DNA of 64,000 bases. Origin: Trichoplax adhaerens. Lineage: Eukaryota > Animalia > Placozoa. The stretch is from positions 6,525,648 through 6,589,647 of the forward strand of contig NW_002060947.1 of the NCBI RefSeq assembly GCF_000150275.1, in the 5' to 3' direction. Numbering within the stretch: position 1 is the first letter of the stretch; each line of letters starts with the position of its first letter. The translations under genes were made by a program, and so were the position numbers. The notes beneath the pieces were generated by a model. That model saw only the letters and a list, made by a program, of their open reading frames with translations. It ran no database searches and was not told where the DNA came from. Below, one piece after another: positions 34,919 through 64,000 of the stretch.

Positions 34919-37223
34919 TTCTTTGCAAAATTATCATTGCAACGTTTAGAAGGTAGCCTAGATAAAGATTTACAAGTCTGTGACGAAGTAAGTATTAATT
35001 CTGGTGGTAAGGTATTTGCTGGAATCATATGGAGAAAGTCAATAAGACCTTATGTAAAGTTTTGTTATCGTTGCCAATATGACAAGTAATCAAGTATCTT
35101 TGAATCCCCTAGGATATTGAGATGGCTACAAACAATCGTAGTGAGGCTAACTTCCTTGGTAAAGGCTCTTTTGGAATAGTATATCGTGGAAAATTGAAAG
35201 ACACAATCGTAGCCATTAAATTCTTAAAACCTGAAGTAAGTATTCATCTTGCATGCACAAATGTTTAATAACCGACATCATTCCAGCAATAGTCCCTGAT
35301 TCTAGTGCCAGCTTGTTTGAAATCAATCTGTCCTGTTAGCTCCTTTATCACAATACACCTTAGAAATTATCTGCTACAGATACCTCCATAGGATAATTAC
35401 GAATGTGGCTAATATTGCAAAACTAATGTTATTAGAATGCCGATGTTGTATTATTTGCTTAATGAATTAAATTTATTTATTCTCATATTGCTATTTTTTA
35501 TAGTTTGCTGCAGTCATTAAGAAAGAACTGTCTTCCCTCGTACGGTAAGATGATTGCCTTCTTTGCAGACTGTCACGGCTACTCTACTAGACTATTCGTC
35601 TTGATAAAATTAAACACCCTTGAATACGATTTACGTAGATTCCAACATGAAAACTTAATTCGATTATATGGCTATAATCGGAAAAACGTTTGCCTGGTCT
35701 TAGAATTTGCAGCATTGGGTCCCTTGAGAAATTCGTTGGAAGCTACGGTACGAGAATCATAAAGTTAAGCTCTTTCAATAGCAGTCTATCTCAGTAACTT
35801 CAAATATTAACTATAGGAGGCCGACGAGATTCTTACTGCTACACAAAGAATAGATATAATATTAGGTACCGCTAAAGGTTTAGAATATTTGCATACTGCG
35901 TTTTCAAAGGCATTAGTTCATCGAGATATCAGCAGGTACCAAAATTTTCATGATATAGATCGTAACATTTTATGTTGTAGCCTATATAAATTAAATATTC
36001 CCCCAAATTTCATTACTAAACACATAAAATTGCTATCTTAGTGGAAATGTCCTTCTCGATAAAAATCGTAAGGCGAAAATATCTGATTTTGGATTAGCAC
36101 GATCAGTTCAAGTCATAGAAAGAGAGTCGATTTGTGCTACTGCCTTCAAAGCTTGTGGTACTCATGGTTATATGCCACCTGAAGCCAAATATGGAGTAGT
36201 TTCCAGAAAGTATGATGTCTACGGATTTGGTGTTGTAAGTATTACTTACCATCAATTGTTTACTATGTTTCAATTGTACTAGAGTTAAGATAATATCACC
36301 ACTATACTGTACTAAAATTAAACTTACTAACATAATGATTGCTGTGTCCTTTTATTATGTACTTAGCTGGTACTGGAAATTATATCAATTCTTCTGCCAT
36401 ATTCAACCAAGAGATCACCTCATATGCTGGTAAATTAGCTATTATGTAGCCTATTCAATCCTTTTAACATTATCAGATCTACTGCATCAAATTTTACTTT
36501 CGAATTGAACGTTAACAAATTGTAGAGTGATATTTACTTTCAAAAGAAAGAAAGAAAACTTCCATTTCCATCGGATAAGAAGATTAAATGGCCAGCCAAA
36601 TGTGTATCAGGATTATTGGAAATTGCAGAAAAATGTTTACATATCAAAAGTAATAGACCTTACATCGATGAGGTATAGTAATATAGCCATCGCTTATAAG
36701 TACCTATGCCAAATTTTTTAAGTAACAGCCTTTTCATGATATTATTTAATCTCAATAGATACGTGAAGATTTAGAGGTTTTCATCAAGCACTTGGATGTT
36801 GATAAATTGAGTAAAGATTCTTCCACTACATCCTTTACACAACAGGACGAAAATAAAAACTTAAAGAAGGTTATCGTTCTAAAAGATGATACAGTTAATA
36901 TTAGACCTACGAAACCATCAAGCAAAAAACAACGCCGGCCGGCTTCGGCGCCTGTTACAGCAAAAAATATAAATATAGATGCTAAACCTCCTGAAAAGAG
37001 CCAATTAAAGATTTTTTTCATAGATGATCAAATCTCCACGAAAGTACAAGATAAATCACCTACGGATGAGGCTAAAACTGTTAAAGAGAAAAATGCTATA
37101 AATAAAAATTCCGCCAAAGTTCAAGATAAAGCATCAACGAATGACACTAAATCAGCAGGACAAACGAGTCCGATGACACCAGGAGAATCACCAGATCTTG
37201 CACTGTATACTACAGATGTCTAA
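34919..37223 (+). CDS. IRAK/Pelle-family Ser/Thr kinase (kinase 1), catalytic motifs intact, 5' end unresolved
   Basis: Exons 34919-34987, 35113-35235 ([22 protein letters not shown]), 35504-35544 (KKEL), 35639-35747 (QHENL), 35817-35935 ([17 protein letters not shown]), 36042-36234 ([32 protein letters not shown]), 36367-36429, 36526-36672 and 36759-37223. All junctions are GT-AG and in frame. Confidence 0.9.
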
Positions 37224-39820
37224 TCTGCTAACGTGCAAACCCGTCTTTTATCTCTACATTTACATCTAAATTTTGACTTCTTATCAGCAAACATGACGTA
37301 AAATAAATTGCTAACATTAAATCTACCTTCTATAACTAAAAATGATGTTCAAAATAGATACTAAACTTATAAATTGATGTGTTTATGCTGCGCATTAAAT
37401 CATGGATTGAAGAAATCAACTATTTGCAGATAAGAATTACTGCAATCCAGTTCATTTGACTGGTATCATTTCACATAGCATTTGAAGTTGCTAGGAAAAG
37501 ATCTTTTTGTATGATGTTATTTTAATCTAAATATTAGACTGGTTCGTTACTGTATCATTAACTTATTTGATCGGAATTTATGGTATAATATTTGAAACAT
37601 ACCAACTAACAGTGAAAATTCATGATATTATATTTAATTATTGAAAGAGTCCTTCAGCAATAATGTGCTAAGATCTTTAGTATTAATTATAATTACAGAT
37701 TGACTGAGCTTAAAGGATAAGTTTTACTGGTGCAACACTTGCAGCAATATTGGAATATTTTAAGCAACAGGAAATGGATATTTTAAATTCCATAACACCT
37801 GTTTATCGTGTAATTAAGTTGCTTTGAATCAAATTATAACCTTTTATTTACCATTTTGTTGGAACATTGATTTTAACTTTAAACGTTAAATGGCACCAAT
37901 ATTTACAGCAATTGAAAATTCTGATAGAATATGGTTATAGAATTCTAAAAAGCCTCTGAGGAATAGGATATTTGATTTCAATATGCCTTATATGCATTTA
38001 CATAGTTCTACTAGCTTTAGAATCATTGATCTCTTGAACAGATAATCAATAGGCTGCATACTGTGGTTAACAGTCCTGTAATAGTGTTCAGCTTTACTTC
38101 AAATCATTGGTTCTTAGAGTAAGGCTCAGTAATGTATACGCTGGATTCCATATCAATTTATGTTTTATACAGACATTCTTTGCACTATCGTTTTGTTCGT
38201 TAAACATATAAATAGAGCATATCCCTGAAAGCTCTTAATCAAAAATTAATTTAAGAATCATACCTAAATCTTGTCTCAATTCATATTTCTATGACTTACC
38301 TATTTATAAGCTTGAATAAAGTACGATTTTAGCCAAAATTCATGCAATCTACAATTACCCCTAAATAGTGCAGATTTGATAACGACTCCATCTTACTAGC
38401 TAGGATTAATTTTTTAAGCGGAATATCGATTAATTCTAAGATATCAACTTTCTTAATCCAAAGCCAGTAAAAACTAAGCATATACGGTATACAATACTAG
38501 AGACATTAGTAAACATACGTACAATTAACAGCAGGAAATTTTAATCTACCATATGATCTTTCATATTATTCGCGTTGTTTTCTCAGTGTGATAACAAGCC
38601 TTTATCATAAATACTATAAACAGTACGTATTCATTTGGCAATGCTTTTAATATCAACAAAACACTATTTAAAAACTAAACGCTATTTATTGATACCTGCT
38701 TGTCAGCTAATAAGTTACAGATATAGAAAGATGTAAATAAAATCCACATTTACTGTTGCATAAAGATCATATCATGGGTGCATAGATAGAATGAACTCAT
38801 TCATTGATGAGTAAGTACCGTGAAATAGTTTAAAATTATGAAAAAATTATATATATTTATGTACGGATTGTAAATAATAGTTATATAACGAGTATAAATG
38901 CTGTACTTATAAATACTGGATACACCCCCAAAAAATTATATTTTAGTAATAAAATTTAAGCGTAATACTCGTACTTACAACTAGGGTATGAAGATAAGTA
39001 ATTCCAAGCGGAAGTATGCGATCATGTAAAGATCAGTAATGAATTCACAGATAGACTTTTAAAGAAGTCCACGGCTTCTAATGATAAAATCAAATATTGT
39101 ATTAACTCTCACATTTGTTACAGCATCCACTTTGAAGTTTTAATTTGCACGTCCATCAATAAAATGTAAAGTCAATCTAAACATTCAACACAGTGAAAGT
39201 ATGGGGAAATTGCATCTGTTTTTCGATGATACTGTACGTATAAATTAGTACTGTTATCATTAGCATCTTTAAAGGATAACAGAATCATAAATAATTTCTA
39301 GTATAAAAAGGGAAACACCTATATGCTATATTATAGAATAAAATTTTTAACATTTTTACCATCTTATGGAAAGTTCTAATACACGAGGAGCCAAGACAGT
39401 CTATAGAAATGAATGTTAATAAAACGAAAACTTTCTATCTCCTCCGAAGTTCTGATCATTTATGATCGTATAGAAACGGTACTATAATAAGCATGATTAA
39501 TCAATTGGTTAAGTGCCGTCTGACCGATACTATAGCACATATTTTAGCTTCTAGCTTGGCTAGAAAAGTAGTCGTTATCAATTTATATTGTTCTACTTAC
39601 GATCAGTACATAAAAATATTTAATTGATTTCTCAAATAAACAATTTAAAATATAATTTATTATTAGTTTATATATAATTATCCGTCATCCTATAAGCTTA
39701 TGTACTCATTGTCGTCCTAGGATGTGATTTAGTTTAGTTCTCATCCCTTCCCATTTCTCATAAAGTACCAAAGGTTGCTTGCCTTTGGTATACTTCATCT
39801 TGAGTAAAGCAAAACCGGTC

Positions 39821-42800
39821 TTAACCTATTACAAATGATAAATTATTAAACTTAATACCTCAATAATTTCCGTCGCCCTATTGATCTCACATTGGCAGCT
39901 AGATTTAAGAGTGTGTTTCAACTTAGATGAAGTTCTCACAAATACCTAAAATATAGTATGATTCTAAATGCTATTAACTAATAAGGCATTGCATTTTGAA
40001 AGGATACAAGTGAGTGAAGTTAGCTAAATTTTCTTTTCTACAAAGCAAAGTATTTATCATTATTATCATTTCTAATCATTGCGTCATTTACAGTGTACGG
40101 TATTATAGAATATATGTATAGATAGCATAGGTAGGTCAACACTTTTCACTAAATAGAGAGATTAAGATTAATCGATTAATTAAATATGAATTCAGTATCT
40201 TACTTCCACCAGCGAAGGCCTATTCGTAGCATGTTCACTGCAACATTTATTACAAATTTCTAGCAATTCAACCCGAAAAGTTTTGCCAGAAATAGAAGTG
40301 GAAAACAACTTTTTCTCCTGATGACGTGAGCCAAGACGTTTATCGTTCAGATATTTCCAGTATTTTTCGTTAGCTAGCCAATCACGCTATTAAGTTAAGA
40401 TATAAATATTTTGTAAACTCCAGATTATTTAAGATTGATGAATGTTAACATTGTAATCATTCCAAACTTGGGTAACTTGATTACTCAATAAAAATTCAGT
40501 CAAGTTGAACAAGCTAGCAGTGAACATAATTAGTTTACTGTTTATAAATTTCGTCATGTGATCGACAAAAATGAAAACTAAATAGCTAGCTAAGGCTAGA
40601 TTTAATTCAAAATTAATATTCTACATAGTTTTTTAGCTAGATTTAAGATTCATCATTATTTAAATGAATTATAATATTTTCTAGAGTGTCACTACATAAA
40701 ATTTTTAGTGAACGAAATAATTTTATCTCCTTTGAACTGACTGTTTGCTCAGTCTATAAATTATAAACAATATTAATGTTACACTGCCAACATTACTGAT
40801 ATTGAGCCATTATTAGTACTGATATTAATCATATTTACCATATTTTATATTAATTATTATTTTTACTTTACGTTTTAAACTCAACTATCTACTAAAGCAG
40901 TTAAAGAAATTCTGTAGAACTGTCTCGTTCGGTACATAATACAATTATGATTATCGGCTGTATGATTTAAGTATAATCTCTGACATACCAGATATTGGGG
41001 GATCCTAAAGGCATCGTAAGCTTGCTTTCCTGATATAACTTCGGTGGCAACCTATTAATCAATTTAACGCTAAACTTTTAATATTAAATTTTTAATTTTA
41101 ATAAAGTGTTTCTTATAATTCTAAGCTAAAATAATTGAAATGACTATACAGTAACAATTACAAAAATCAAAAACATACAATTGCAAAGCTATAAATATCA
41201 TTTTTCTTGCCAACGTGGCCATTTAGAGCATCCTGGCACATATAAGCAATTTTATGATGGTGATATAATGCTTTCTTGGATAGTGCTAACTTCGTTTGAA
41301 ATAAGCTAACATATCCAAAATCGCTTAATTTGGCTTCTCCAGTGTTCGTAATCAAAATATTCTTTCTACAAACAATTAAGATAGAATAAAATGGAATTTG
41401 AGTAATTTATACAGATAGAGCAAGGCGGATTTATAGTACCTAATGCAATTATGATTTTATCGTTATAAAATATTTTGCAGTCATGCAACATATCTAAAGG
41501 TATACGATTAGCTAATTTGGTCTAGATGGGAATGAATTATTTAGCGATAATTTTGATTTCAAACCACCTTAAAACAAAAACTTCGACTTCTTATCATATG
41601 GACTTCTACAACGAATTATGACAGATTTAAATCAATCCTACACCTACGTGGTTAAGTTTTCATGAACAATACCATGATCATGTAAATATTCCAAGCCATT
41701 TAATATATCGGTAAGAACTTGATAGCGTTGTTGTGAATTTAGGAAGATTTTTTTTGATTGCTAAAGTCAAGATGAAGGAAATGGCAATTACTACAGAGTA
41801 TTAAAATTGGCACTTTATGGCACTATTATTATTATGACATACCTGAGCCTTAATATGATCTCTTAAAGTATGTTCGAAATAACACTCCAATACGCCTCCA
41901 GGATAGCGATAGTACCGATAGGATTTTAAAATATTATCATGTTTTAGCCTGTATATTCAGATAAAAACAGCAGCTGCAATAAAACAAAAGCCATAACTTA
42001 TAGCGACGGATAATTTATTACCTAATCAGCTTCCTAACGGCTGTTCTCGTCTCTTTGCAATCATCTAGCTGTAAAAGCAATATTTATCTCAGTTTTTCTG
42101 CATTCTTTAATTTCATTAGCATGATATTAATCTCAATTTATTAGTATTAAACATTCGCCGCATAAAAATATTAGATAGTCATATTGAAATATAATGAATA
42201 TCAGGAGCAAGAACTTATTACGTCTTTTGGTTACTCCTAAAACGGCCTGAGATTTAGCTAAATATCATATGTTATACGTACACGAAAATTCCACACTTTA
42301 TAAACAAAGGCTTTCCCATCGTAGCGTATGATCAAATTTTGGCTATAATGGCCGTCACATTGTTTCTTGCCTACTTTATTATAAACTAGAGTAATTTCCT
42401 ACGTAGAGTGATAATCGAAATAGAATATGAATCCTTTTTAGCGAATGTTCTATGATAACAAACAAATGAATCGCTAATCTTATTTTAACCGCAAAAAATA
42501 AATGATTTTTAATTAGGTTACCGTCTGAGGTGGATAATCATCTATTTCATTCAACGTATCAACACTAGAACTTCTACTTGCACTTCTTGGACGAAGCAAC
42601 ATTACTTCTTCTGCTTGACTCTCTCGCCTTTTTTCAGGCTTACTTAGTACCTAATAGGATCGTACGATTTGAAGCAACGTAACTTAGGTAACACTGTACA
42701 ATAACATAAGATTGAGTTATCGTATTTAGCTACAGTATATAAGCAGAATTACAACAAGTGAGATTGATAATAGGATATCAATTTTCAACTGCTATTAGTT

Positions 42801-42882
42801 CTATATTGCTATAACTTAATACCCCGCAACATGTAAAATTATTAGCGAATTCAGATAAGCGGTATAATAATTTCTCCACCAT
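39821..42882 (-). CDS. IRAK/Pelle-like pseudokinase (kinase 2)
   Basis: Exons 42823-42882 (tentative), 42522-42650, 42282-42398, 42022-42068, 41843-41948, 41648-41760 (GLEYLH..IVHENLT), 41179-41365 (AKLSDFG..DIYSFAI), 40989-41051, 40204-40386 (CC..NRPS), and a last exon from 39945 with an ambiguous end. The frame is open throughout. Confidence 0.82.
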
Positions 42883-45800: not shown

Positions 45801-46319
45801 ATGAAATGAAAACTCGGTAGATTAGAAGTAGTTTATGTATTGGCCTTACCTTGTGCCCTATGATTGTCCTACATTTGAAATTTATATCAGTAGTACATAA
45901 AACGATTAGCCTACGGTCTAGAACTTTGCCAAGATTACTATAATTAAATCATCTTCATACAAAGTATCCAACAATGAGCTTTGATGATATGTTAATGTAA
46001 ATATCTAATCAGGGCAATTTAAAAATAAAAATTGAATATTGAGACAAGATCTGTTTAATTTAAAAACTGAAAGCTGATCAACTACCAGTTCCATGAGTAA
46101 ACTTTTCTATCCAATGCTAATTCCATTAATACAAAGTTATGATATCTTTGTTACGAAATTTTTGTTCATTAATGCACTAGTAGCTGGTCTGATAGAACTG
46201 CACTTTTATATTAAGGCTTCAATATGTATGACATGAGTCATGATAGGTACTAGAGAAAAAACCACTTATGGTTGCCAAATAATCGTTTCTAGCTACAGTC
46301 ATATATAGCAGTCCTCGTA

Positions 46320-47440: not shown

Positions 47441-47849
47441 ACTACAGCTCGATGATAACATCCTATATACTAGTCATCTGTTTGTTTGGATATTCTACCC
47501 TTGTTGCTTATTATTTAATAAGCGATTAAATCACATCCTTTACTGAAAGATTTTATACTACTGCTTCAGTGATACTTATTTACCCTTCTTGATTACTTGT
47601 GGTCTACTACGAATACTCCATTAATGGAATTGGTTCTGCCAGGCATTAATATCAATCTCCAGACTGAATTATAGTATAGGACATAGTTGGTAGTGGATCT
47701 TGGTTTGTTATGGCGAAAATTAATTCTCTCCAGGGAATTGAAACCCTAATTCTCGTCTTGTCATGATTTTGATAGCCAGAAATCAGCAGCATACCGAGAA
47801 ATGCTTTCAGCTTTCGAATGAATCATATCGAGCGTTGGATATTAACACC

Positions 47850-48490: not shown

Positions 48491-50094
48491 AGAGAGATTA
48501 CAATTGCATTAGTGACGAAGGACTTGAATTTAACGATTGCAGCCCAGTTCCTCTACTTAAACAAATCTTAATATTATTATTATTTACTTAACTCTAGCAC
48601 CCCGGTTACTAGCATATAGGCTGCTTCTACAGTATTAAGATTAAGACCCATCCTCGTGTACAACAATTTTTATTATGACTTAATACTGTAACTAAAAGAA
48701 TTTTGACACCTGCAGTGGTATCTACATTTCCAGAGCATCTTTGCTCAAAAGCAAGTCTTAAAAACCTTAGGTACCTGCTTCTATGTAACACTTTTACTGT
48801 ATCATTCATCATGACAGCAGACATACATCCCAGTTAAACAGTCTATTTGGAAAGTAGCGAATATTCTCTTATTTCAAGACGTTTTAATTTCGCATATCTT
48901 TATGGAAAGTGGCAATAAATAGTCAGTCCTTGCGTTGAATAAAAATTAGTTGCATCTGAGCCGTAATATCAGTCAAGAATAGAAATTGCTTTCAACGATG
49001 CCAAACTTGTTATCGTATCTAAAAGCAGTCAGATCATAACAACCTTACTCATCGGTCATGTTCAGCAAATTCCTTTAATTCGAAAATATAGCCACGACTA
49101 CTAAGAATTACTACCGGTAAGCCTTTCTCGCTTAATTGAAAATTAAGGAGACTATTAGAAACGAGCTATACAAATGATTTTCTTTTATTTCTGCCTGTAT
49201 TAGATTCACTATAATATATGATCGTTTTCGCTACCGATTGCCTAATCCTTTTGCAAAAAGTTAAGCTTTGAATAGTTGTCGTCATTCTATACAAATTTTA
49301 TGAACTTTGATTCAATTGCCGTTATGAAGTTTTTATCCACACGGTTGAGAAAATGGAGACATACCTAGCTATGCAATCTTTAATCCTTTTCTTAAAAGCT
49401 AAGCATTGAATAGCTTTCGTCATTCTATACAGGTGTTAACCATAAATAAATCACCATCACTAAGGACTTATCCGTGCACTGGAGAAAATCATGCCATAAG
49501 TATGCTTCGATATCGTTAGTATTATCGATCATCTTTGATTGTGTTCATTATCATTAGAAATTGATGAGGATAAAGGAATCTACTTCACACTCTAGTATCT
49601 TTGATCTCCTGCTTTGCTCTAAATCTGATTGCTATCCTTTGTCCTTCCCAGCTAAGCTGCAATAACTGGATCTTGATGTATCTATTATGGCAGTCAGGAT
49701 AGTGATATTTTTATGCCCTGTATCAAGTAAATCTACTCCGCAAATATAGTATCTTTGATTTCTTGCCTGGGAAACTATCACTCTCTAGAATAAAAATGAG
49801 ATGGAGATTTGTAAAAATAAGTGTTGGTAGTTTTCTGTCTAAAGTCTAAATCCGAGTTCATGATAATTATATCGATTAGAAATGAGAATTAAATGGAAAA
49901 TAGGGTTCTATTATCTACAATATTATCAGATTATGGCAGATAATTTATTAGTGTAAGAATTATATTATTAAATATAGTATCAGCAATACTGTATTTATTG
50001 TCGAAATGAGAAAATTTGTAATTGGCCTTGAAAAGTAGTAAAGTAATGTAATGTCTGATATAGGGGGATCACCGATAATCCTATGAAGTAGGAA

Positions 50095-51260: not shown

Positions 51261-52082
51261 ATATGTCAATATTTCGACTGTGCTGCATGATCTTTACCGG
51301 CGATAAATTCAAATTAGGGATAACATTAGTGTTACAATATGCTATGTCAATATTACGGAATTGGAACTCGAAGTAAAAAGTTGTGAAAATCTCCATCATA
51401 TTAGAAAAGTGTTATATGATCGATTAAATTGATGGCTAAATCGCGGTAATCAACAAATTAGAAAATAAATTGATTGCCAAAACCTAAATTGGATTTATAG
51501 CTATATTAGGTTGAATGAGAAACATTCCCATCATAATTGCTTTATTAAGTGGTTGTTTGTCCGTAGCCCAGAATAAAAGTTTTCCACGGGTGGAATAGAG
51601 AGATTCTTGAACCATATGGTAGCAAATGATGAAGGTTATTCATTGCAAGAACGTAAACTCTCCGTCATATGGGCTAGCAAACAAACTCGATTGACTTTAT
51701 TGTCCGTAGTAAAGGTTTAATGACGTCTGATCTACTTCCTATAGGACGCCAAGACTTAAAGAGCTAATAACGCTAAATGATGTCATTTGATGATTACTTT
51801 TCATTGCTTACGTCGCCATATTGGTTGGTTGTACAACGGACAATATTTCACTCTATTTGATTTATCGGTTGTATTATCACTCTGCTAGCCAATTGACTGC
51901 ATGAAAATTGCATCTTTTTATTGACAGACTCGATCAAGTATTTTGCTACGGACGCTGTCTAATCTTCTCCACTCAAAGCACCATTTTAAACTGTGATAGC
52001 CATTCAATTTGAACGAAAGAAATCAGAAATTTCTATTAAAAGTTCTCCTTCTAATTGCACTATCCATCATTGCTGAGATCCA

Positions 52083-55000
52083 ATGGGAAACGCGTGCAAG
52101 AAACCATCAACTCCTATATTCAAGGTAATGCAAAATGCAGTAGGAGTGCTAATCTTACTTGAAAAGATAATCACTGCGATTACTCCATTAGTCACAGTTT
52201 TCAGTTGTAGGATTATTTATTTGTGTGGTAAAAGTGATTAGTACGCGAAATTTGTGTCCATTTCCTTGATCTATTTTCCATGGGTACAATTTTGAATTGA
52301 TATCCAAGATGAACGTTCAATTTTTCAATTTCTAGATGCTAATCATGCTATCTTTCTTCAGGCGTACTGACACTCAAATTTTTTCAACGGTCTTCGATAT
52401 AGATTGTCTACTTTTATAGTATCCCTCTATAAAATATATTAATTTAAAGCTAACTGATCAATCGCTTATTCTCTCTAATTAAAGCTAATTACGCTACCTT
52501 TATTCAAGATTTAAAATGGTAGCCACCTAACACTCAACATGAGGCCTATTCTATCTAAATAATGTCATAACAGATCTGTAAATCATATTAGCATAAACCT
52601 TTACTTCTCTAAGTATATATCTTAGGCACCTATTCGCAATATGATATCACTATTAACCCTGTTGACTAGAATGCGATATTGAATGTCACATCCACCAAAA
52701 CTAATTCGTTTATATGGAGTAAAATTTTGATGTTTGTGGCATGGTCACTTTTAATTCATCTATGTCTACCATTTAATCTTATTTATTATCCATTTAAGCT
52801 TTCAAGATCAATGCCAACATCATCATTTATATTTGATCACTGATACTAATTTAATGAAATAGCAGGTTGAAACTAATTTACCACAACTAAAGATTAATTT
52901 CAGTTAATACGCTATTTCAGTATTCCAAAATCTTACTTTAAATAACACAAGATTGAATTTTACTTTAGACCTGAGTTCTGAAATTATGGAAAAATAGTTC
53001 TTGGTTTTGGGGTTTCTGTTTGGTTCAATATCCAGTAGGATATTCATATTGAATGTTTACCTGTTTGAAAATAAGACTGTTTGAGCAGTTAATATAGATA
53101 TCTAGTTTGTAAGATTTCTAGGACTGAATATAGATATCCGATTCGATGATTCTAGCTTTATTATTCATGTTGCACTTAGATTAATTCGTGCTTAGATCAT
53201 AAATATTGAAGTAACTAACAAGGAATTTTTTAAATTGTGTCTATCGTTTTTGGCCAATATCGTCCCATAACAATTATATTGATTTACTTTTATTTATTGG
53301 CAAAGTATTTAGTTATCTATTTACATATTTATTTCTAGTCTTTATTGAATCTTTACATAGATGCTTTACGATCCTAAAGATACTGTGGATAAATCGAATT
53401 TACTGTACTGATAATCATACATTAAATTGAATAATTGTATTGCAGTTGAACCACCCTTAAGCTTGTGGATAATTTTAAAGGAATTGTAATTACATATAGC
53501 TAGCTTGGAACCATTAAGACCTCATTTATATCGTATACTACGCTATTAATCAAATTATGGTTATTTTTTATATCGCAGCCAGTCAATCCTCATCGAATAC
53601 TCAGATCGGTAAAAGATAATGTGATAACATAAATTGTATAGCGGATGCAATATCTAAATGGATACTTGTTATATTATGATGGCGTTAAAGGACATTATTA
53701 CGTCAAGCGAAATTAATTATCCAGCCTATCTCGGTGAGGGTGAATTTGGTCAAGTTTTTAAAGCTGAAATTCGAAAGCTAGGAGCTGTTGCCATTAGAAA
53801 GCTGAATCTGGAGGTTATTAATTGTAGTATTAAGGATTCTAAACTCATGCTTCCGGATCAATTTTCTAGCAAGATAATACTCGATGCTAATACTGAAATG
53901 ACAGAGTAGGATGAGCTTCATAGTTGTTATAGAGGAGTTGATGATATTTTTATACTCAGAAAGATATGATGATGTAGTATTATCAACAGAGGAAACTACC
54001 AAATTGGTGCTTTACAATCATTCTGTGACACATTGTGAAAATAGTGAATTAGTTTTTCATAGCTATGAACTTCTGGTTTAGGGTTTGACGCATTTTTTCC
54101 CTTTTGAATGATGACCCAATTAAATGTAGGAACAATCTAGAATTAATTGCTGGCCATTTAATTTGGTAGTATGAAACATCTGAGTAGGATACGTATAATA
54201 TACGTATCTAATAAAATTATTTAAAAATTATCTTTATTAATGACTGGCCATGTGATATAGCGACTAATATTAAACATCAGCGTAGAATAGACATTTTATA
54301 TCTCATGATACTAGATTATTTAGCTCCCATTCTTTCTGTTTATAATTTACGTATCCTATAAAGGCAAAGTAGTAGAATATAACATTCTTTTTATTGCAAT
54401 TAACTGAATTATGTTTTATTATTGCATTTTCGTATCCTATAAAAGTAAGTAAAACAATCTGCATCAATGACTAGCCAAGCGATATATCGTACCAGTATAC
54501 GACATCAAACAAGAATATATAATTTACTATCTCATGAGACTGGATTACTTAGCTCTCATTCCAGCTGTTACAATGCACATACTAGGCCTATAGAGATAAA
54601 GTAGAGGCATGTGAAATTACTCTATTGCAACTAGCTGGATTATATTTTACTGCTGTATTCCGCTGTGATACTTTTCATTTATTATAAATTATCCTACTCT
54701 ATCCATATTACATCGGCCGCTTTGGACGAATATCAATTTTTGTATTATATCGAGATAATTTTGTCTAGTGTAACGACTAAGGTATTTTTTTATGACCAAT
54801 ATAGTATGCAGAATTATTACCTACCTTTGCCGGACTTATCGAGTAAGACGATAATAAAATAGTTCTAAATATTATAGCTACAAATGTAATTATCTTATAA
54901 ATTTCCTTTGAAAGTTAAGCTTGAATAAAATACTATGTATTCACGATTTAATCCACTCTTATTTAAACAGCTACAATCATATTAATATTGTCAAACCGAT

Positions 55001-57268
55001 TGCATTACTCAAAATTGACCGACAGTGGTGCGTTTTAACTCAGTTTATCGATAATGAAAATCTACGAAAAAAATTAGAAGATAAGGTAAATATCAATATG
55101 GCAAACAACATCAAGCAGTTTTTCTATTTAGTACGGAGTAGAAATACCCTCTTTCGGAATTATTTATATCAGTGCAATGTACATGACCTGCTTTAAAATT
55201 CAGTTCTGGTATAATAGCCTACCATCATGTCCAAAAACGTACTATCAGTGGCATGGAATTGCAATAGAGCAAATGATACCAAATTTAGAATGCATCTTTT
55301 GAATTACCTTGCTGTATCTACTATTGTTTCAACAGTACTTTTCTTTTCCGCTATTTAAATTTGCGTTCATATTCAAATCTATGCTTTGAATTGTGTCGTT
55401 GTATCTATTGTTACTCACAAGCTGTTTTTCTTATCCTCCTTTTAAACTGGCTTTCATAAACATGAATCGGAATAATCGACGTCTAAATCATAGACTAAGC
55501 CTTTATCCTTTGATATACGTATTAAAATATTAATGGGAATTGCAAGTGGTTTAGCTTACTTACATGATGCATTTTGCAAGAATAAAATGCATCTGCTACT
55601 TAATAGCAACAATGTTCTACTAAATCAAGCTTTGGAACCCAAGTTGTCCGATTATGGACTACTGAAGCCAATTGATTTACAAGAAATATATTATAGCCCA
55701 ACCCCAACAGAACGTCAAAAATATTTGAAAGGTTACATGCCGCCCGATCTTGATAGTGGAATCGCATCTGGTAAATTTGATTCCTATAGCTATGGAATTG
55801 TAAGTTCTTATACCAATAATATAGTTTTTATATCTAAATTACACCGCATATTTCAGATTTAAATTTTCTGCATTTCCATAACTTACTGAAGTACTGACGG
55901 AATTCTAAATGTTATTTATTATTAAGATTGTGCTAGAAATCGTTTCTGGCTTATCTAGCTACAAACCGGATATTTCAGGTCCATCAGCCGACAAGCCTGT
56001 CTATCTAGTAAGCATATGCATACCAATATATGAGCACTCTACTCTTCGGTTTCAAGAGGAATACTAAAAAATCAGATTCTCGATCGTTAGGGATATTTAT
56101 TAGCGTCTTCTATTGATCATATTACAATACTATTTGCTTGGTAGATTAACTTGATATAGTCTACGTGATGAGTTTAGCCAAAACTCAATAGATATCTAAG
56201 AATCAATATAATATTTCAACTTATGCATATGTAGTAAAGTTATTATATCAATTCTATACATGGTCTAGAATAAGACTGAAGAAAACAGATTTTAGGATAA
56301 GTTATCCTACGCTCAGCATTATCCAGGTGTTATTAATGGTATACTTCTTGAGAAGAGTTTTTGTTAATGGAAACGATCGATCGTATAAGAATATCTTAGA
56401 TACGATATTCTATTAAAATATGTATCAATATTCTAATACAAATATTACACTCACTGCTTTATTAATTATAGGTATTAAACCTCATAGATATTTTGTGTAA
56501 CATTAAAATTACAATTTAATTAAGAAATTCATCGCCCGAGCGCTTGACCATATAGTATACAAATAAAATTTTCATTCTTTTACTTTAGTTGTGATGTACA
56601 TAAATATTTCTTCTATTCTAATACATAAATATTTAGTGTCACTCATTACGCTAATAAATATTAATCTTTGATAGGGTGATCATTTCTTGCAATGCTGTGG
56701 AAATCCGGAAATGTTATTTTATTGTGATGAAGATATTGAGTGGCCAAGCAATGAATACGTCTTTTCATCAGAAGAAATGCAAGAAATTGCATATGAATGC
56801 CTGAAAAAGGATCGTCTTGAACGTCCAACGATGAGTGAAGTAAGTGGCAACAATACTGTTTAACTTTGCTATTGCATTTTCGTTTCATAAGCTATCCTAG
56901 TATATGCTAATGACCTTAAAACTTTTAAAAGCTCTCGGCAAGTTTTATATCAACTTTTACTTCCTGAAGTAAACAGTCAATCACATTCTTTATAAAATAC
57001 TGTAATATTGAACTATTTAGAGCTCAAGTCTTGATAAAAATAATCTATCGATAAAACGATTTAAAAATATTGGAAATTTTTTAATCTGAGCCTTGATTTT
57101 ATTTTATGTCCTAAATGCTGAATACACTATTTATCTCACTTCTTGAAATTCTCGATATTCGGTACTACATGTAATCTTGCGTAGCAACTTAAAGTGTTTT
57201 CATTCTGTTTTCAGTGCTACAGAACCTTGTTAGAGATTAAGAATTTCCTCGCAGATCCTCCAAATTAA
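52083..57268 (+). CDS. IRAK/Pelle-like pseudokinase (kinase 3) with predicted N-myristoylation/palmitoylation
   Basis: Exons 52083-52124 (MGNACKKPSTPIFK), 53579-53608, 53691-53813 (LGEGEFGQVF..VAIRK), an alphaC exon not resolved, 54971-55085, 55494-55799 (GIASGLAYLH..HLLLNSNNVLL..PKLSDYG..GYMPPD), 55927-56007, 56675-56839 (ECL..RPTMSE) and 57215-57268. Confidence 0.82.
54290..54665. repeat. Intronic degenerate duplication, ~230 bp period
   Basis: tatctcatga.act.gatta.ttagctc.catt at ~54299 and ~54528. Confidence 0.6.
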
Positions 57269-58399
57269 TACTAGGATTTAAATAGGAAATAAAACCTAAA
57301 CGATAAAATTATGACGGGAACTTGAAGTAGTTGTCAATCTGTTACGGTAGATGTTGTTCAAAACTTAGCATCGTGTCCTTATTAACAATCATTATTTCGT
57401 TGAAAATTAATTCATTAGTTTACTAAAATTTCGCCAATCGAAATTGTGTCAATAATTTTGTAATACTTTACTTATCATTGACTGAACTCTGCTTCCATAT
57501 AGCAAATAGATTGTAAATGATAGAGTCCATTAAATTTCATGTGATTCATAACCTTAGTTAAGAAATAATGCAATTCTGTCTTAAAATTCCGATCGATTTA
57601 TTTCACGATTTACCTTTTTTCATAATATGAATTAATTCACATAATCTGAACCTCTCTATACATATTTATTTGTATTTACGCTGGTATAACGTTTATCTAC
57701 TTATTCTGAGTCCTTAAATATTTGAAAATATTTGTATAATTAATTAAGGATATCGTGTATGAATATTTGTATTCAGTCTGGTTTAGTCCAATATCTCTAA
57801 AAGTCAAGAAACTAAACTAAAATTGCACCTGATTAATCAAGCTAAAAAATATATCAGCTGGGTGAATCGAATATTGTTAATTAAAATCTGTGATTATAAT
57901 TAATTATAAACTGGCTTTATTGTTATAAATGGCAAATAAACTATACAAAGCAGCTGTAATTGCGCATATTTTGTACTATATATAAATTAAGGTTATGCTT
58001 AATCATGTGAACAAGTAACTGTGTTTTATATTGCCAATTCTTGTAAAACTATTAGAACGCTAAGATCCTTTACATGCAAGTATACCTTTATGGTCCTTCG
58101 TATGTCATATTAATGTAATATGCAAACTACTGAATCATTTAAGCAAGAATGCATCAATTCCCAACCATTAAGATTTAAAATGTACATATTCTATAGATAA
58201 CGATTAAAGAATGGCTATACCTTCTAGCTAACAGTTTACTCGTATGATCATTTTTATTTTCCGAATCTTTCATGAACGACAGGAAAGGGATTATTCATCA
58301 TCACAATCGTTCACTGATACATATCCTGTAGTTAGCATATCATCAGTACCGCTGAAATAAATATCCAAACAGCTTCGCAGTGTTTTCTTGATCTATTGG

Positions 58400-61300
58400 A
58401 GGCCATCAAAGGTTACAACATAAGGTTGAATATTTCTAGCGCTACACTTGACTAAAATCGACAAGGTAGCGACGGATATCATCAAGATGTATATCCATCA
58501 CCATAGCAGACATGAATGCTTTCAATCAACTAAAAACTGAAATTTACTGATAGTTTGTATATCTTTACCTGATAAATACTCAGTCTTTCGCTTAATTTTT
58601 CCTTCATACAATTTTTAGCGATTGATACTAAACATTTTCTATATGTAGTAGTAGAAAGTTGGGGATTTTTCGCCCATTTGATCCGTTTATCTTTTAGAGT
58701 TTTTCGCTTTTTCTTGTCTTGAAGTATTGATCTCTATGATGATCAACGAGAATTCATAACATGTCAAAAAGGGAATAATTTTTTCATACAGATGCTAAAT
58801 TAAAAGGCGAGTATTTATGGCCTGTTATTGCATGCTAACATATCGACAATTTATGGCTTACGCTAAAATAAACTATCGCAGTCTAGCGATAGATCATAAT
58901 TGAAAGGTAATATTTTATATGAAATAATCGCTGACTATACGAACTAATTTTAGAATGCTATCGCGAATTCACTAATAGATCTACAAACGCTTGATATCTA
59001 TTTTAGCTGTACATTTTAAGAAACAAGATGACAGATCCAGATTCTTAAGACATAGTTGAATATCCTTGACTTGAAAACATTTAAAGTAGTTATTGTAAGT
59101 TGATTTGTAGACTGTGACATAGTTGAGGAAATTTCTATATGAAAATCATATTATGATCGATAGGTATTCAATAGATTGAATCTAAAGTAACTAGGAATGG
59201 TAGGAACAAATTTTTTTTAAAGCAGTTATAAGGAATCCATTTTAGCTTGGAGAGTAACCTACCGCATCAACATCTTTTCCGTTTTCAGTACACAAATATG
59301 GCTCTTTCCCACATAACAGCAGAAAGATTACCTTCCAAAATTAAAATATTCAAATGTTATCAAGACTGGCTACCAATACGATACACATTAGCCTATTTTA
59401 ATGGCAATCGCTTGCAGTAACAACATATGTAGGATAAAAATTGAAGAAGTATTGAATAGAAAGAAGAATGAAGGACTTACCGCCCCTAGACTGAATATGT
59501 CATTGGATTTTTCAACTATTCCATTGTATGCGTTGGAACTGTAATAACCTAGTTTGTTCTGAGAATTTTTAAATCCATCTACTTTGATATTAGATATTGC
59601 TTCTGGAAAGACCGTATAATAGCCACCATGAGTTATTTTAGCGGTGCCATCACTGGTGAGAATTATATTTTTCCTATAATCAATTCATAATGGAGAGTAT
59701 AAGTCTCTATAACGGTCATTCGATGATTGGCTTTAATGAAATTTACCCTGTTAGGTTGTTATGAACGATTTCTTTCGAATGTAGGTGGGATAATCCTTCA
59801 ACCACATTGGAAAGGATTACATAACGTTGGTAGCACCTTAATAATCTGTTTGGATTCTGCAATGGAATGGGTAGAGCATAGCTTAAGAACAAAGTTCCAA
59901 TGAAACTTAATCCAATCCTTATCAACAGGTGTGTATGTGATCTGTCCTAAAATGGTCCTTAAAGTGCTATATACTAGAATAGATTGTAATGGATTCATTT
60001 TCTTTTAATTAACTGTCATGATGGGGCTCGCATTAAATTTGAAATTAGTCTTTACCATATCAATCATACGATCACTTAAACTTTCAGCTCCAGATTCCTC
60101 TACAACTCCGTTGAATTCTAGATAGAATTGTAGTACCCTGATAACATTTCTATGCTCTAATCTTTAACAGAGATAACCAACGGGTGTTAATATGCTGGTG
60201 ATCTAAAATGGAAAACTATCTTTACAGTTATAAAAGATTATTTAAAAACTGGATCAAGTTAAAGATATACTTAGATAAACGCATTGCTCCTTGTCGAAGA
60301 TTTTTTCTAGCTTTAATTACGATCTGAGTCAGATTTCAGATGATACATTATTTGTAATCACAAGAATGAATTGATACGAAGTGATCAGGATTATTTAAGT
60401 TTAGGCATTAGGTTAACGATGCTTAAATCGTACTAGACTAGATGCATTAGTCATGACCAACCTGATAATGCCACTGTTTGAAAACGAAACATTGATTTAA
60501 ATATTTAATTCCAACACAGGTTTTGCCAAAATAGCCTTCTGGCTGTGGCAACGTGAGGGACTTACGGATAGCCTATAGGGAAAGTTAAAGCAATGCTTAT
60601 CGAACAACGTAGATATCGAATTTTAAAAGAGATATTGTCGCTGCAAGTGCTCTAAAACAGGCTAAAATTTATTCAAATAATGATCCGTTTCAAGAGTAAT
60701 AACTTGTAATAGGTAAGCAAAGTCTCGGCCGAATAATTCAGCCTACAAGAAGAGTAGAAGATCGAAACAAGCTTATACGTTCATTCTATATCTGTAAATT
60801 CAATAAAGTTATTTCATAAGAAACCAAGCCGGTTAAGGATTGGGTTTATCAAGTAAATTATATTTACAACTTACATTAAGGTCATTTTACATTTTCATTC
60901 TTAATTTCATCGATGATAGTATCAATGCTAACCTGATAAAGACCAGACTCAACAAAGTCGCTTGCACCTTCACTGGAATCTTGATCCACTAGAGGATCTT
61001 CGTTTGTAGACGGCCATGAACAATAAGCGAAAGAGTTGGTGATGGATTTTGCTACACATTTATTTTGATATAGAGATCTCTCATGGTCTACATCAGTTCG
61101 ATAATAGCTTTCCTCGTTGTCGTAGTTTTTGCGGTTTCCATTATCTCCCTATTAATTGATTTTAATAAAATGACAAAATAGACCTAGTAAGCTATGGAAG
61201 ATATGTCTTAAAAATTCATGTACATGTTATATGAGTTGCAAATTGCCTTGGCCATTTCATCCAATAGGCAAAACTACAGTAGTTACCAGCTGAAAAGAAT

Positions 61301-63351
61301 TGTTATATCCTGATAGATTCGAGGTAATCCATCTTAGTGGATCAGGCTATACAGTAGTCTATTCAATCAATCTTACTATAGTGTTAATTTTGCTAGTTTT
61401 TGTGCTCATCTGATTTACCTTTAGTGTTTAGCAGCAGAAATTTTGACTGAGGGTGGAATTTTCTACCCCAACCTTCAGTATAATTGACTAATTTATCCTG
61501 TAAGCATGATATGATCGTCTGCCTAAGAGATCTTAAGAGACTAACCTGCTCGAATTAATTTACTGTGATACATATCGTTATTATGTGTTGCATAGTATGG
61601 TTTATCAAACCAGAAATACGAATTTCAAGTTATCATCATACGTATCAGAGCGTTGCTTCTATTATCGAGGAGATTTTTATTTTCTAACATTACGCGATTG
61701 ATCAATTAGAGAGCATAAGATGCTGCGATTCTCAGTAAACTAGTGAATAGTAGTTAGGTATATTCTGTGTAACAGGAAGTTATAGAATTATTCATGCAAC
61801 ATGATGATTCATTTTACTGTGATAGGGTTAATTCTATACCATCACTTTCTATTCCTGTGGCTTTGTACCTTTCAACCTTGCATACAGGTATAATATTGTC
61901 ACAAACCAGCTTCGTGACAAGGATAACGTAAAACAAATCTCCAAATTACTATAGTCTCCGGGATTCAGTATCCCTTAACTACCTCACAAGAACTTAGACG
62001 CCTTTGCTTCTACCTTAAAACAACTATACAATTGAGAACTGCTTTATTCAACTATCTGACGGGCTTACAGCAGCTAACATTCACGAGTCATCTTATTAAA
62101 ATACTTAGGTGAGAACATCTACTAACTAATTTTTTACAGTCAGACTACAATATGTCCATTCACAGAATCATTTCAGTACACATTACAGCACAGCATTAGA
62201 TTTACTGTAACACATTTATAATTAGAGTAATTCCTACTGTAAGTAACTAGTTGTAATATATTATCACTATATTATATTAACCAAATTTAGATGACTATTT
62301 CTTCACGGTAATTCGTACCGTGACAAATATACATAGAGTAAAGTAAAAAATGGTTCTATCTAAAAATTGTTAGTTTCTCTCTTAGCCCTATTTCTACCCA
62401 ACAGCATCCAGCTGTAGGTATGGCTTTATATCTATATACGTGTATTGGAAATCAAGGGCAGTGGCGACTGAGAATATATAAATAAGTTATCGGCATATTT
62501 AACGTTCAAGATCAAAAAGTAGAAATAACTCTCAAGGTATCTACCACTAATGATATTAAGACATTTAGAGAAGCCCGGGACGGTCTACCGTGATTTTGCA
62601 TTCGTAGAGAGGATGGGTTATCATAAGTAGGATAACAATACGAATATGCGCTTCCAAGCAGATGATGATTTTCTACAGCAGTATAACCGATTAATTAACC
62701 AATAGGACATGGAAACTTAGCATTTTTTGTTGGAATAATAGCAAAAATAATAAATTACAGCATCTAAAATGGCTATGCCTATGGATGTGCAAGCATTTGA
62801 TCTATCAATGTATAAAAGGAGCAATTCAATTCTTTGTCATATCACATATCCCACTTCTAGTAACCTCGTAGACTTACTATCGCGATGCCAAAATTAATTA
62901 TTACTTTTTACTGTAAGACGATTTATTGTCAGATATGGACAATATACGTTCACCGCTATTAACTTTGTAGACTTACTACTACGATGCATGAATTAATAAT
63001 TGCTTTTACTGTAATATAATTTATTCCGACATATAGACGATTTATTGGCATCAAAGTAATCATCTTGAGCTACGGATCACCAATGAATAATTAATTGCTT
63101 TTTCTGTGATATTCTCGATTTAATTATAGTAATCTGCGTACAGTGCATACAGCTAAAAAAGTACTATACTGGTACATCACGTACAAACATCTTGACTGCT
63201 ATTTACTAAAGCAGCCTTAACCAACAATTTTACCTATATTCATTATTCTAATCTCAGATAGGTTCCAGCATACCTTGTTCTCTCCATTATAGAAGCAGCA
63301 ACATGTCCTGATAAAGGAGTTTTGCGTCTTAGCTTGATCGTTGTTAGCCAT
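58400..63351 (-). CDS. IRAK/Pelle-like pseudokinase (kinase 4), closest to kinase 2
   Basis: Exons 63274-63351 (MANNDQAKTQNSFIRTCCCFYNGENK), 60933-61148, 60462-60572 (FVFKQW), 60271-60323, 60056-60161 (LEHRNV), 59747-59856 (GLSHLH..IVHNNLT), 59481-59673 (AKITHGG..DIFSLGA), 59263-59331 and 58569-58733. The last exon and 3' coordinate are approximate. Confidence 0.8.
61897..62325 (-). mobile_element. Solo LTR-like element, family B, second copy (429 bp), in intron 1 of kinase 4
   Basis: Reverse complement of 13771-14211 with TGTCAC/GTGACA ends. Its own 5-bp TSD is AATAT (61892-61896 and 62326-62330). Confidence 0.9.
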
Positions 63352-63764
63352 ATTTTATGACTTCTCTGTTGATCCGGTAAGCTGACTGCTGATATGAAAT
63401 AGTATTAATTTGATTTACTTTTAATCAATTTTGGCAATCTTGCTATGGCGCTACAAAACTATGAAAAAGGCGGAATTAAAGTAAAGGCTGGAGAATGGGA
63501 TATAGATAAAATAAACTTATTTTACGCCGTAAAAATAATAGTAAAGAATGAATGTGAGAGAAGAAAAAGAAAGAATACGAGTAAATATATTGACAATAAT
63601 ACTAGGATTTCTAGGGAACACTGTCTGTTATAGAATTAGTACTGTATACATTTAGCCTCGATCTAATCAAAATAGGATGTTGAAATGACTAATTTCTGTT
63701 TATATGCTTATGAATACAGTTTAATTATTATACCACTTCGATGCACTCACCGAGCCCGTTTGCG

Positions 63765-63955: not shown

Positions 63956-64000
63956 AGTAGTTTCCTTATTATATTTTTGATATAGACATCTTCTTATTGA

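What the first reader, a model, noticed from the sequence alone, without database searches (positions are those of the whole stretch)
34919..63351. Cluster of one active IRAK/Pelle kinase plus three death-domain-less, lipid-anchored pseudokinases: a possible animal counterpart of plant RLCK/ZRK decoy clusters
Seen: four paralogous kinase genes in two convergent pairs (+,-,+,-) that share intron positions. Kinase 1 keeps GxGxFG, VAIK, the alphaC Glu, HRD and DFG. Kinases 2-4 keep open frames across their reconstructed exons but lack the catalytic Asp. Their N-termini (about 25-100 aa) show no recognisable death domain and instead carry acylation motifs. Established: animal IRAK/Pelle/Tube kinases are recruited through death domains. 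Their plant relatives, the receptor-like cytoplasmic kinases (PBS1, BIK1, Pto), are membrane-anchored by N-acylation, and clustered ZED1/ZRK pseudokinases act as adaptors/decoys for the NLR ZAR1. Inference: this locus may encode a Myddosome-independent, membrane-tethered kinase/pseudokinase signalling or guard system in a basal animal.
Basis: partly seen in the sequence, partly recalled or inferred. Interest (0 to 1): 0.85.

Follow-up and report, generated by a model that had tools for sequence, protein, structure and literature searches.

The report
Cysteine-tagged dead IRAK kinases of Trichoplax
In the simple animal Trichoplax, one intact and three catalytically broken copies of an immune-type (IRAK-like) kinase sit side by side, are spliced into mRNA without the usual death domain, and two of the broken copies begin with a conserved cysteine cluster that likely attaches them to membranes, where they would act as scaffolds or regulators.

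Summary
The four genes are real: Trichoplax TRIADDRAFT_56774-56777; a fifth paralog (56778) is next by locus number and is not in the window. RNA contigs confirm the splicing (fully for K1 and K3, partly for K2 and K4). In-frame stops lie 1-16 codons upstream of each ATG, so no death-domain or transmembrane exon is joined on (for K2 this is inferred). K1 keeps the catalytic motifs. K2-K4 lack the HRD Asp and the alphaC Glu, yet fold as IRAK4-like domains. K2, K4 and three further paralogs form a clade with its own fixed pseudo-active-site residues, and 5 of 5 carry a CC/CCC cluster in the first 35 residues (control 4 of 113). K3 starts MGNACKK, which public models miss, but fails the myristoylation consensus at position 6. 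All seven Trichoplax kinases form one clade outside plant RLK/RLCKs, so any likeness to plants is convergent. Death-domain-less, clustered placozoan IRAK-like kinases are already in print (Kamm 2019). The pseudokinase status and cysteine clusters were not found in print. Nothing supports a ZRK/ZAR1-type decoy: placozoan NOD proteins lack LRRs. Best reading: likely S-acylated pseudokinase scaffolds or regulators. New variant of a known kind.

The parts
31290..31716 (+). K1 non-coding first exon (3' end shown; 5' end approximate)
   Evidence: The loose end at 34653 in 4 of 4 runs maps to 31699-31715; stops in all three frames
34768..37223 (+). K1 = TRIADDRAFT_56774: intact IRAK4/Pelle-type RD kinase, 449 aa, 10 coding exons, about 30-aa N-terminus with a predicted amphipathic helix, long low-complexity C-tail; polyA at about 38338
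   Evidence: in-frame stop 14 codons upstream of the ATG
39706..42882 (-). K2 = TRIADDRAFT_56775: pseudokinase (HEN, no alphaC Glu, DFG kept), 374 aa, N-terminal helix then TCCG at residues 17-20
   Evidence: Skipping of 39859-39945 is inferred from X11 depth arithmetic and matches the H2 public model P0012
44710..45100 (-). K2 non-coding 5' exons (about 45100-44950 and 44799-44710; inferred)
   Evidence: Loose end at 44800 in X6 and depth arithmetic; all 15 possible GT donors give an in-frame stop within 16 codons of the ATG and no upstream Met
48750..49116 (+). K3 non-coding first exon (5' end approximate)
   Evidence: Loose end at 51927 in X9, matched by eye to 49088-49115; stops in all three frames
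52083..57268 (+). K3 = TRIADDRAFT_56776: pseudokinase (VAIR, no alphaC Glu, HLL, DYG), 317 aa, true start MGNACKK that the public models miss
   Evidence: in-frame stop 2 codons upstream of the ATG
58291..63351 (-). K4 = TRIADDRAFT_56777: pseudokinase (HNN, HGG, no alphaC Glu), 400 aa, TCCCF at residues 16-20
   Evidence: joint 61147/63273 in 3 of 4 runs; in-frame stop 1 codon upstream of the ATG

Best explanation
This is a placozoan-specific expansion of a death-domain-less IRAK/Pelle-type kinase in which one copy (K1) keeps the catalytic motifs and three expressed copies (K2-K4) have lost them; K2 and K4 carry a conserved N-terminal cysteine cluster that is likely S-acylated, which would tether them to membranes, where they would act as non-catalytic scaffolds or allosteric regulators, most likely of K1. 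Shown: gene models, splicing (K2 only in part), absence of a death domain, loss of catalytic residues, one Trichoplax clade, fixed substitute residues in the K2/K4/K5/K6 pseudo-active site, and the cysteine clusters. Inferred: S-acylation, membrane location, K1 catalytic activity, binding to K1, and a role in innate-immune (TIR/TRAF/Pellino/TAK1) signalling. In working logic this is IRAK4 with IRAK2/IRAK3, but with a lipid anchor in place of death-domain assembly, converging on plant BKN/BSK-type acylated pseudokinases.
For: RNA joints and upstream in-frame stops. Best solved-structure matches by sequence: IRAK4 for K1 (E 7e-39) and for the K2/K4/K5/K6 profile (E 1e-32 against 2e-23 for the best plant kinase). 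AlphaFold models of K2 (pTM 0.76) and K3 (pTM 0.86) have a full kinase fold with IRAK4 as top Foldseek hit; their alignments were rich in IRAK4 rows, so this is not independent. Tree of 46 rows: 7 Trichoplax rows one clade (96/91), the 5 cysteine-cluster paralogs one clade (100/99), 26 plant rows a separate clade (99/96). At 27-58% identity K2, K4, K5 and K6 share 10 residues that K1 lacks and under 20% of IRAK4/plant rows carry, including Asp>Asn at the catalytic base, Lys>Thr at HRD+2 and Thr>Lys before the P+1 loop, which points to selection on a non-catalytic surface. CC within the first 35 aa in 5 of 5 clade members, against 4 of 113 fetched control kinases and 3 of 64 other 35-aa windows of the Trichoplax kinases; the paralogs are not independent draws. 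Neutral substitution to 60% identity left 0 of 300 simulated frames open for each of K2, K3 and K4. K3 RNA-versus-window coding differences: 5 synonymous, 3 non-synonymous of the 8 listed (P 0.014-0.045; list cut at 40 rows). Precedents: IRAK2 has Asn for the catalytic Asp, and IRAK3 is proposed to regulate IRAK4 allosterically (PMC7955167, passages); tandem BKN pseudokinases reach the plasma membrane through G2/C4 lipidation (PMC6907349, passages). Trichoplax H2 has Pellino, TRAF, TAK1, Tollip and TIR proteins.
Against: No lipidation, localisation or activity data exist here. The cysteine clusters lie at residues 14-31 with no Gly2 (K2, K4-K7), so a first membrane-targeting signal is not evident beyond predicted amphipathic helices in K2 and K6. 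K3 fails the position-6 myristoylation consensus, and its best sequence matches are plant LysM kinases (E 3e-23) ahead of IRAK4 (4e-19). K1 has Ser for the HRD+2 Lys found in 35 of 35 IRAK4 and plant rows, and Leu for the Tyr gatekeeper found in 33 of 35, so its activity is inferred and may be low. Neighbourhood reflects tandem duplication and does not imply a complex. No ortholog from another placozoan genus turned up among the listed hits, so conservation is shown only among paralogs and two close Trichoplax strains. Grouping with vertebrate IRAK4 is neither shown nor rejected (AU p 0.3).
Confidence: 0.45

Rival explanations
1. The pseudokinases are membrane-anchored scaffolds that work independently of K1, with other receptors or kinases (for example GPCRs, TIR/SEFIR proteins or other Trichoplax IRAK-like kinases), possibly outside immunity; clustering only records their origin by duplication.
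For: Paralogs are 17-33% identical apart from K4/K5. Two clade members lie on another scaffold, away from K1. Kamm lists 10 IRAK-like genes, so other active partners may exist. Plant BKNs were found in pollen-stigma signalling.
Against: Human IRAK pseudokinases act within IRAK complexes, and all four genes are transcribed in the same whole-animal libraries, which is weak evidence.
Confidence: 0.25
2. The cysteine clusters are not lipid anchors but bind metal or act as redox or disulfide switches; the pseudokinases are soluble regulators.
For: No Gly2 in 5 of 5 cysteine-cluster proteins; K6 and K7 have 4-5 cysteines in 35 residues; IRAK3 dimers use conserved cysteines and disulfides.
Against: CC/CCC next to Phe, Trp or Leu in a disordered N-terminus (pLDDT under 50 for K2 residues 1-59) is the usual setting of S-acylation sites (established knowledge, recalled); spacing differs between paralogs, unlike a metal site.
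Confidence: 0.15
3. One reading: the pseudokinases are baits or adaptors for microbial effectors, guarded by an NB-ARC/NACHT protein as ZED1/ZRKs are by ZAR1.
For: Tandem cluster; the same Asp>Asn change as ZED1 N173; 42 NACHT/NB-ARC genes, many Apaf-1-like, and a rickettsial endosymbiont in H2. K4 differs at 7 of 400 residues between the window and H2, against none in the K1 kinase domain.
Against: The ZED1-dependent complex needs the ZAR1 LRR and no placozoan NOD protein has LRRs. Asp>Asn is also the IRAK2 change, so it is not diagnostic. The genes fall outside the plant clade. Strain differences are small (K2 2 residues, K3 2 in the shared part). No NB-ARC or NACHT hit among the 50 window segments scanned.
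Confidence: 0.08
4. Some of the 'dead' copies keep an atypical, low or metal-independent transferase activity.
For: The beta-3 Lys, catalytic-loop His and Asn are kept in K2, K4, K5 and K6, and a new invariant Lys lies before the P+1 loop.
Against: The catalytic Asp and alphaC Glu are absent in K2-K6; the DFG Asp is absent in K4 and K5.
Confidence: 0.05
5. K2-K4 are decaying duplicates with no function.
For: Long branches, above all K3 (2.59 changes per column).
Against: Open frames, GT-AG splice sites and splicing in RNA; 0 of 300 neutral simulations stayed open for each gene; clade-specific invariant residues; intact models in two strains.
Confidence: 0.02

Closest known systems
Placozoan IRAK-related kinases without a death domain (Kamm, Schierwater and DeSalle 2019, PMC6321704)
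   Same: Same gene family in the same genus: IRAK-like, all without a death domain, placozoan-specific paralogs, many in a tight cluster.
   Different: The paper does not mention pseudokinases, catalytic loss or acylation (0 occurrences of six terms in the main text; 'pseudokinase' 0 in 6 supplements). Its flagged cluster (TrispH2_009235-242) is probably not this one: product names and accession order fit K1 = 008689 and K6 = 009076 (my inference, about 75%), in which case K2-K5 are not in its table. Its FASTA supplement could not be read.
Vertebrate IRAK4 with the pseudokinases IRAK2 and IRAK3 (Myddosome)
   Same: IRAK-type kinase domain; an active member plus catalytically dead paralogs; Asp>Asn as in IRAK2.
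   Different: No death domain, no Tyr gatekeeper, alphaC Glu lost (kept in IRAK2 and IRAK3), N-terminal cysteine clusters; the dead copies arose within the Trichoplax clade in my tree, which holds no IRAK1-3 rows.
Plant acylated RLCK pseudokinases (BRASSIKINs; BSKs)
   Same: Tandem, lineage-specific, cytoplasmic Pelle/RLK-family pseudokinases with N-terminal lipidation motifs (BKN: passages; BSK1 S-acylation: search listing only).
   Different: Separate origin; BKN lipidation is shown and uses G2 plus C4, while here it is only predicted and mostly lacks Gly2; no receptor-kinase partner is known in Trichoplax.
ZED1/ZRK (RLCK XII) with PBL kinases and ZAR1
   Same: Pseudokinases with degenerate motifs beside active relatives; Asn at the catalytic base as in ZED1.
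   Different: No LRR-bearing NLR in placozoans; no effector or NLR link; not in the plant clade.

Membership tests
IRAK/Pelle (animal) | Kinase domain closest to IRAK/Pelle/RLK | tested here: met
   IRAK4 is the best solved-structure match for K1 and the K2-class profile; plant RLKs then IRAK4 for K3
IRAK/Pelle (animal) | N-terminal death domain | tested here: not met
   No Pfam death hit in 8 of 8 proteins; upstream in-frame stops; an HMM from 21 vertebrate IRAK4 N-termini gave a best E of 3.5 on six frames, while 10 of 10 pieces of a pig IRAK4 were found (a close control only)
IRAK/Pelle (animal) | Tyrosine gatekeeper (hallmark recalled) | tested here: not met
   Tyr in 8 of 9 IRAK4 and 25 of 26 plant rows, 0 of 6 Trichoplax rows that cover the column
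IRAK/Pelle (animal) | One clade with animal IRAKs | tested here: inconclusive
   The free tree puts the Trichoplax clade outside IRAK4+plants with weak support (89/60); the joint clade with IRAK4 is not rejected (AU p 0.3). No IRAK1-3, Pelle, Tube, sponge or cnidarian rows were available
Pseudokinase | Loss of one or more of the VAIK Lys, HRD Asp, DFG Asp | tested here: met
   K2 lacks the HRD Asp; K3 lacks the HRD Asp and has Arg for the VAIK Lys; K4 lacks the HRD Asp and the DFG Asp
Pseudokinase | No measurable phosphotransfer | not testable with these tools
   Needs purified protein
Plant RLCK | No ectodomain or transmembrane helix | tested here: met
   The most hydrophobic 19-residue windows lie inside the kinase domains (positions 126-301), none at the N-terminus; no upstream coding exon
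Plant RLCK | Nested in the plant RLK/Pelle clade | tested here: not met
   26 plant rows form a clade without the Trichoplax rows, 99/96
Plant RLCK | N-myristoylation and/or S-acylation | tested here: inconclusive
   Motif level only: CC in 5 of 5 K2-class proteins; K3 has Gly2 and Cys5 but Lys6. The modification itself cannot be tested here
ZED1/ZRK decoy system | Pseudokinases in a tandem cluster | tested here: met
ZED1/ZRK decoy system | Partner NLR with an LRR that holds the pseudokinase | tested here: not met
   From the literature: LRR required; 0 of 42 H2 NACHT/NB-ARC proteins have LRRs
ZED1/ZRK decoy system | Effector-induced complex with an active kinase | not testable with these tools

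The most novel reading that the evidence does not exclude
Placozoans replaced Myddosome assembly with lipid anchoring and built, independently of plants, a membrane-tethered kinase/pseudokinase sensor: S-acylated IRAK pseudokinases act as baits or adaptors for effectors of their rickettsial or other microbes and are read by the expanded Apaf-1-like NB-ARC-WD40/TPR proteins to trigger cell death, an animal counterpart of the ZAR1-ZRK-PBL circuit.
Probability: 0.08. Interest if true: 0.85.

Novelty: new variant of a known kind. Interest (0 to 1): 0.4.

Why it matters
Kamm et al. left open how TLR-like signalling can run in animals whose IRAK-like kinases have no death domain, as in placozoans and apparently cnidarians. 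A conserved cysteine cluster on five pseudokinase paralogs gives a concrete, cheap test of one answer: membrane tethering by S-acylation in place of death-domain assembly. If true it is a convergence with plant acylated RLCK pseudokinases and a second, independent origin of IRAK pseudokinases in animals. The work also corrects public gene models (N-termini of K3 and of T. adhaerens K2, 8 extra residues in K1), which hide the motifs.

Tried and rejected
No whole genome is held, so the full Trichoplax family and flanks beyond 64 kb were not surveyed. Three word-seeded protein searches and one full HMMER scan (top 150 swamped by tandem plant-type kinases) listed no ortholog from another placozoan genus and no named cnidarian, sponge or insect IRAK; only the best 120-150 hits are listed, so this is not absence. 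The search for related loci could not use the alignment. Complex prediction for K1 with K3 was not available, so binding is untested. In one search the RNA contigs barely cover the 3' half of K2 (40013-41515) and X5 does not cover K2's coding exons; X11 does not cover K4's coding exons; contig holes prove nothing. An extra K2 exon (39859-39945, in the T. adhaerens model and my first model) was dropped because X11 depth fits a direct joint; this is arithmetic, not a displayed joint. A K4 start at 'MGDNG' (61151) was rejected because RNA joins 63274 to 61148. The idea that the decayed repeats at 47850-48500 are death-domain relics found no support: one Pfam bDLD1 hit at E 0.17, none, no IRAK4-DD HMM hit, Atlas hits under 0.9. 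A loose end at 43001 has no match in the window and was set aside. Rfam: 0 hits. The Atlas look-up of K4 gave generic TKL and plant RLK clusters. In one search the row labelled E88 is off by one residue; alphaC Glu statements rest. K7's public model lacks middle exons, so its motif row was not used. One partial whale IRAK4 was left out of the tree. Plant-to-animal gene transfer was rejected by the tree. Literature searches for placozoan IRAK pseudokinases or acylated animal IRAKs found only Kamm 2019 as relevant; most subscription journals are not in the library, and kinome-wide pseudokinase surveys may list these proteins.
Full report
Identity. The window is AT-rich eukaryotic DNA with short introns. 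A profile of single kinase exons found the public proteins TRIADDRAFT_56774, 56776 and 56778 and their Trichoplax sp. H2 counterparts; cluster look-up added 56775 and 56777. The four genes are K1 = 56774, K2 = 56775, K3 = 56776 and K4 = 56777. K5 = 56778 is on the same scaffold and next by locus number, outside the window. Two more paralogs (51556 = K6, 51563 = K7) lie on another scaffold.

Gene models and RNA. Four runs from four studies were laid on 33500-48500 and 51000-64000. One is on record as RNA and three are guessed RNA, but all show GT-AG joints. K1: 9 of 9 coding introns in 4 of 4 runs, a polyA tail at 38338, and a 5' exon ending at 31716. K3: 8 of 8 introns in 3 of 4 runs, plus a 5' exon ending at 49116; the true start is MGNACKK at 52083, which both public models miss. 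K4: 7 of 9 introns displayed, including the joint from the first coding exon (63351-63274) to 61148. K2: 4 of 9 introns displayed, one more as a loose end and one by depth arithmetic. Both joint tables were cut. The final models are 449, 374, 317 and 400 aa with no internal stop. In-frame stops lie 14, 2 and 1 codons upstream of the ATG of K1, K3 and K4. For K2 the upstream joint is inferred, and all 15 possible donors give a stop within 16 codons. Pfam finds no death-family domain in 8 of 8 proteins, and an IRAK4 death-domain profile finds nothing in six frames. Seven of 8 kinase-domain intron positions are common to all four genes.

Catalytic motifs. K1 has GKGSFG, VAIK, the alphaC Glu, HRD, DFG and PPE. 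It also has Ser in place of the HRD+2 Lys (Lys in 35 of 35 IRAK4 and plant rows) and a Leu gatekeeper (Tyr in 33 of 35), so activity is likely but not shown. K2 has HEN and keeps DFG; K3 has VAIR, HLL and DYG; K4 has HNN and HGG; none has the alphaC Glu. AlphaFold models of K2 and K3 show complete kinase folds with IRAK4 as top match, with the caveat that the alignments were IRAK4-rich.

Selection. The dead copies are maintained. Neutral substitution to 60% identity left 0 of 300 frames open for each of K2, K3 and K4. K2, K4, K5 and K6, 27-58% identical, share 10 residues that K1 lacks and that under 20% of IRAK4 and plant rows carry, several in the remodelled active site. Of 8 listed RNA-versus-window coding differences in K3, 5 are synonymous (P 0.014-0.045; list incomplete). 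Protein differences to strain H2 are 3 in K1 (all in the tail), 2 in K2, 2 in the shared part of K3 and 7 in K4.

N-termini. K2, K4, K5, K6 and K7 all carry CC or CCC within the first 35 residues (5 of 5). Controls: 4 of 113 fetched non-Trichoplax kinases starting with Met, 3 of 64 other windows of the Trichoplax kinases and 28 of 2602 windows of the control proteins. The N-termini otherwise align poorly, so the cluster looks conserved, though paralogs are not independent. This fits S-acylation (recalled general knowledge); it is a motif, not a measurement. K3 has Gly2 and Cys5 but Lys6, outside the recalled myristoylation consensus. K1 has no acylation motif; its first 12 residues form a strongly amphipathic predicted helix (top 1% of its windows).

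Ancestry. K1 and the K2-class profile match IRAK4 best among solved structures; K3 matches plant LysM kinases slightly better than IRAK4. In a 46-row tree (7 Trichoplax, 9 vertebrate IRAK4, 26 plant, 4 fungal outgroup; one partial IRAK4 left out) the Trichoplax rows are one clade (96/91), the five cysteine-cluster proteins one clade (100/99) and the plants a clade without them (99/96). K3 has a long branch. A Trichoplax+IRAK4 clade is not in the free tree and is not rejected (AU p 0.3). The likeness to RLCKs is therefore convergence or shared deep ancestry, not membership.

What is known. Kamm et al. 2019 (PMC6321704; abstract, passages, section 16, supplements 1 and 4 read; FASTA supplement unreadable) state that all placozoan IRAK-related kinases lack a death domain, that many lie in a tight cluster as placozoan-specific paralogs, that cnidarian IRAK-like genes also lack it while sponges have it, and that none of 42 NACHT/NB-ARC proteins has LRRs. 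The text has no occurrence of pseudokinase, catalytic, inactive, palmitoyl, myristoyl or acylation. Their flagged cluster, TrispH2_009235-242, is probably another one: its Swiss-Prot best hits (SD16, CRCK2, EMS1, IRAK4, IRAK4, MSP1) do not match the NCBI names of the H2 proteins here (CRK40, LYK5, PXC2, LRK10L1.3, putative Ser/Thr kinase), while accession order and names fit K1 = 008689 and K6 = 009076 together. This mapping is my inference, about 75%. IRAK2 and IRAK3 are pseudokinases, IRAK2 with Asn for the catalytic Asp, and IRAK3 is proposed to regulate IRAK4 allosterically (PMC7955167, passages). Tandem BKN pseudokinases are plasma-membrane bound through myristoylation and palmitoylation (PMC6907349, passages); they are a closer analogue than ZRKs. 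ZED1 has Asn173 at the catalytic base and its complex needs the ZAR1 LRR (PMC6634424, passages). Searches found no paper on placozoan IRAK pseudokinases or acylated animal IRAKs; the library lacks most subscription journals.

Earlier scan notes. Two notes on another assembly reach similar readings: an expressed pseudokinase cluster, and the corrected MGNACKK start with weak support for a lipid anchor. They are not independent evidence. One takes the cluster as Kamm's flagged cluster, which I doubt for the reasons above.

Verdict. Most likely (0.45) these are S-acylated, membrane-tethered pseudokinase scaffolds or regulators of a death-domain-less IRAK-type kinase. A K1-independent scaffold role (0.25) and a non-lipid role of the cysteines (0.15) are the main rivals; the NLR-decoy reading has no direct support (0.08). 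New variant of a known kind; interest 0.4.

Noticed in passing
window 61897-62326: Element of about 430 bp in intron 1 of K4, bounded by short inverted ends; many RNA contigs match it and run off into unrelated sequence at both borders; no Rfam hit. Looks like a MITE-type interspersed repeat.
   Followed up: partly
window 46400-47300, 47850-48500, 50075-51263: Three sets of decayed tandem repeats between K2 and K3, full of stops; the first reads like a GPCR fragment by eye, the second like a decayed coding repeat; no convincing Pfam, death-domain or Atlas match.
   Followed up: partly
window 31681-32560: Four tandem copies of a 200-240-nt unit at the start of K1 intron 1, overlapping the end of its non-coding first exon.
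   Followed up: no
window 26000-29000 (-): CDT1 replication-licensing gene (Pfam hits in two exons), transcribed away from the K1 first exon about 2 kb off; possible shared promoter region.
   Followed up: no
window 1300-2650, 7351-8478, 18553-19635: Three related rhodopsin-type GPCR genes; two are intact single-exon ORFs with 7tm_1 hits, the first is in two pieces.
   Followed up: partly
window 57953-58062: RNA contigs of the convergent K3 and K4 genes overlap at their 3' ends.
   Followed up: no
public models P0011, P0014, P0122, P0123: Annotation errors shown by RNA: K3 models lack the first two coding exons, the T. adhaerens K2 model lacks the true first coding exon with the CC motif, and K1 models carry 8 extra residues after exon 2.
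   Followed up: yes
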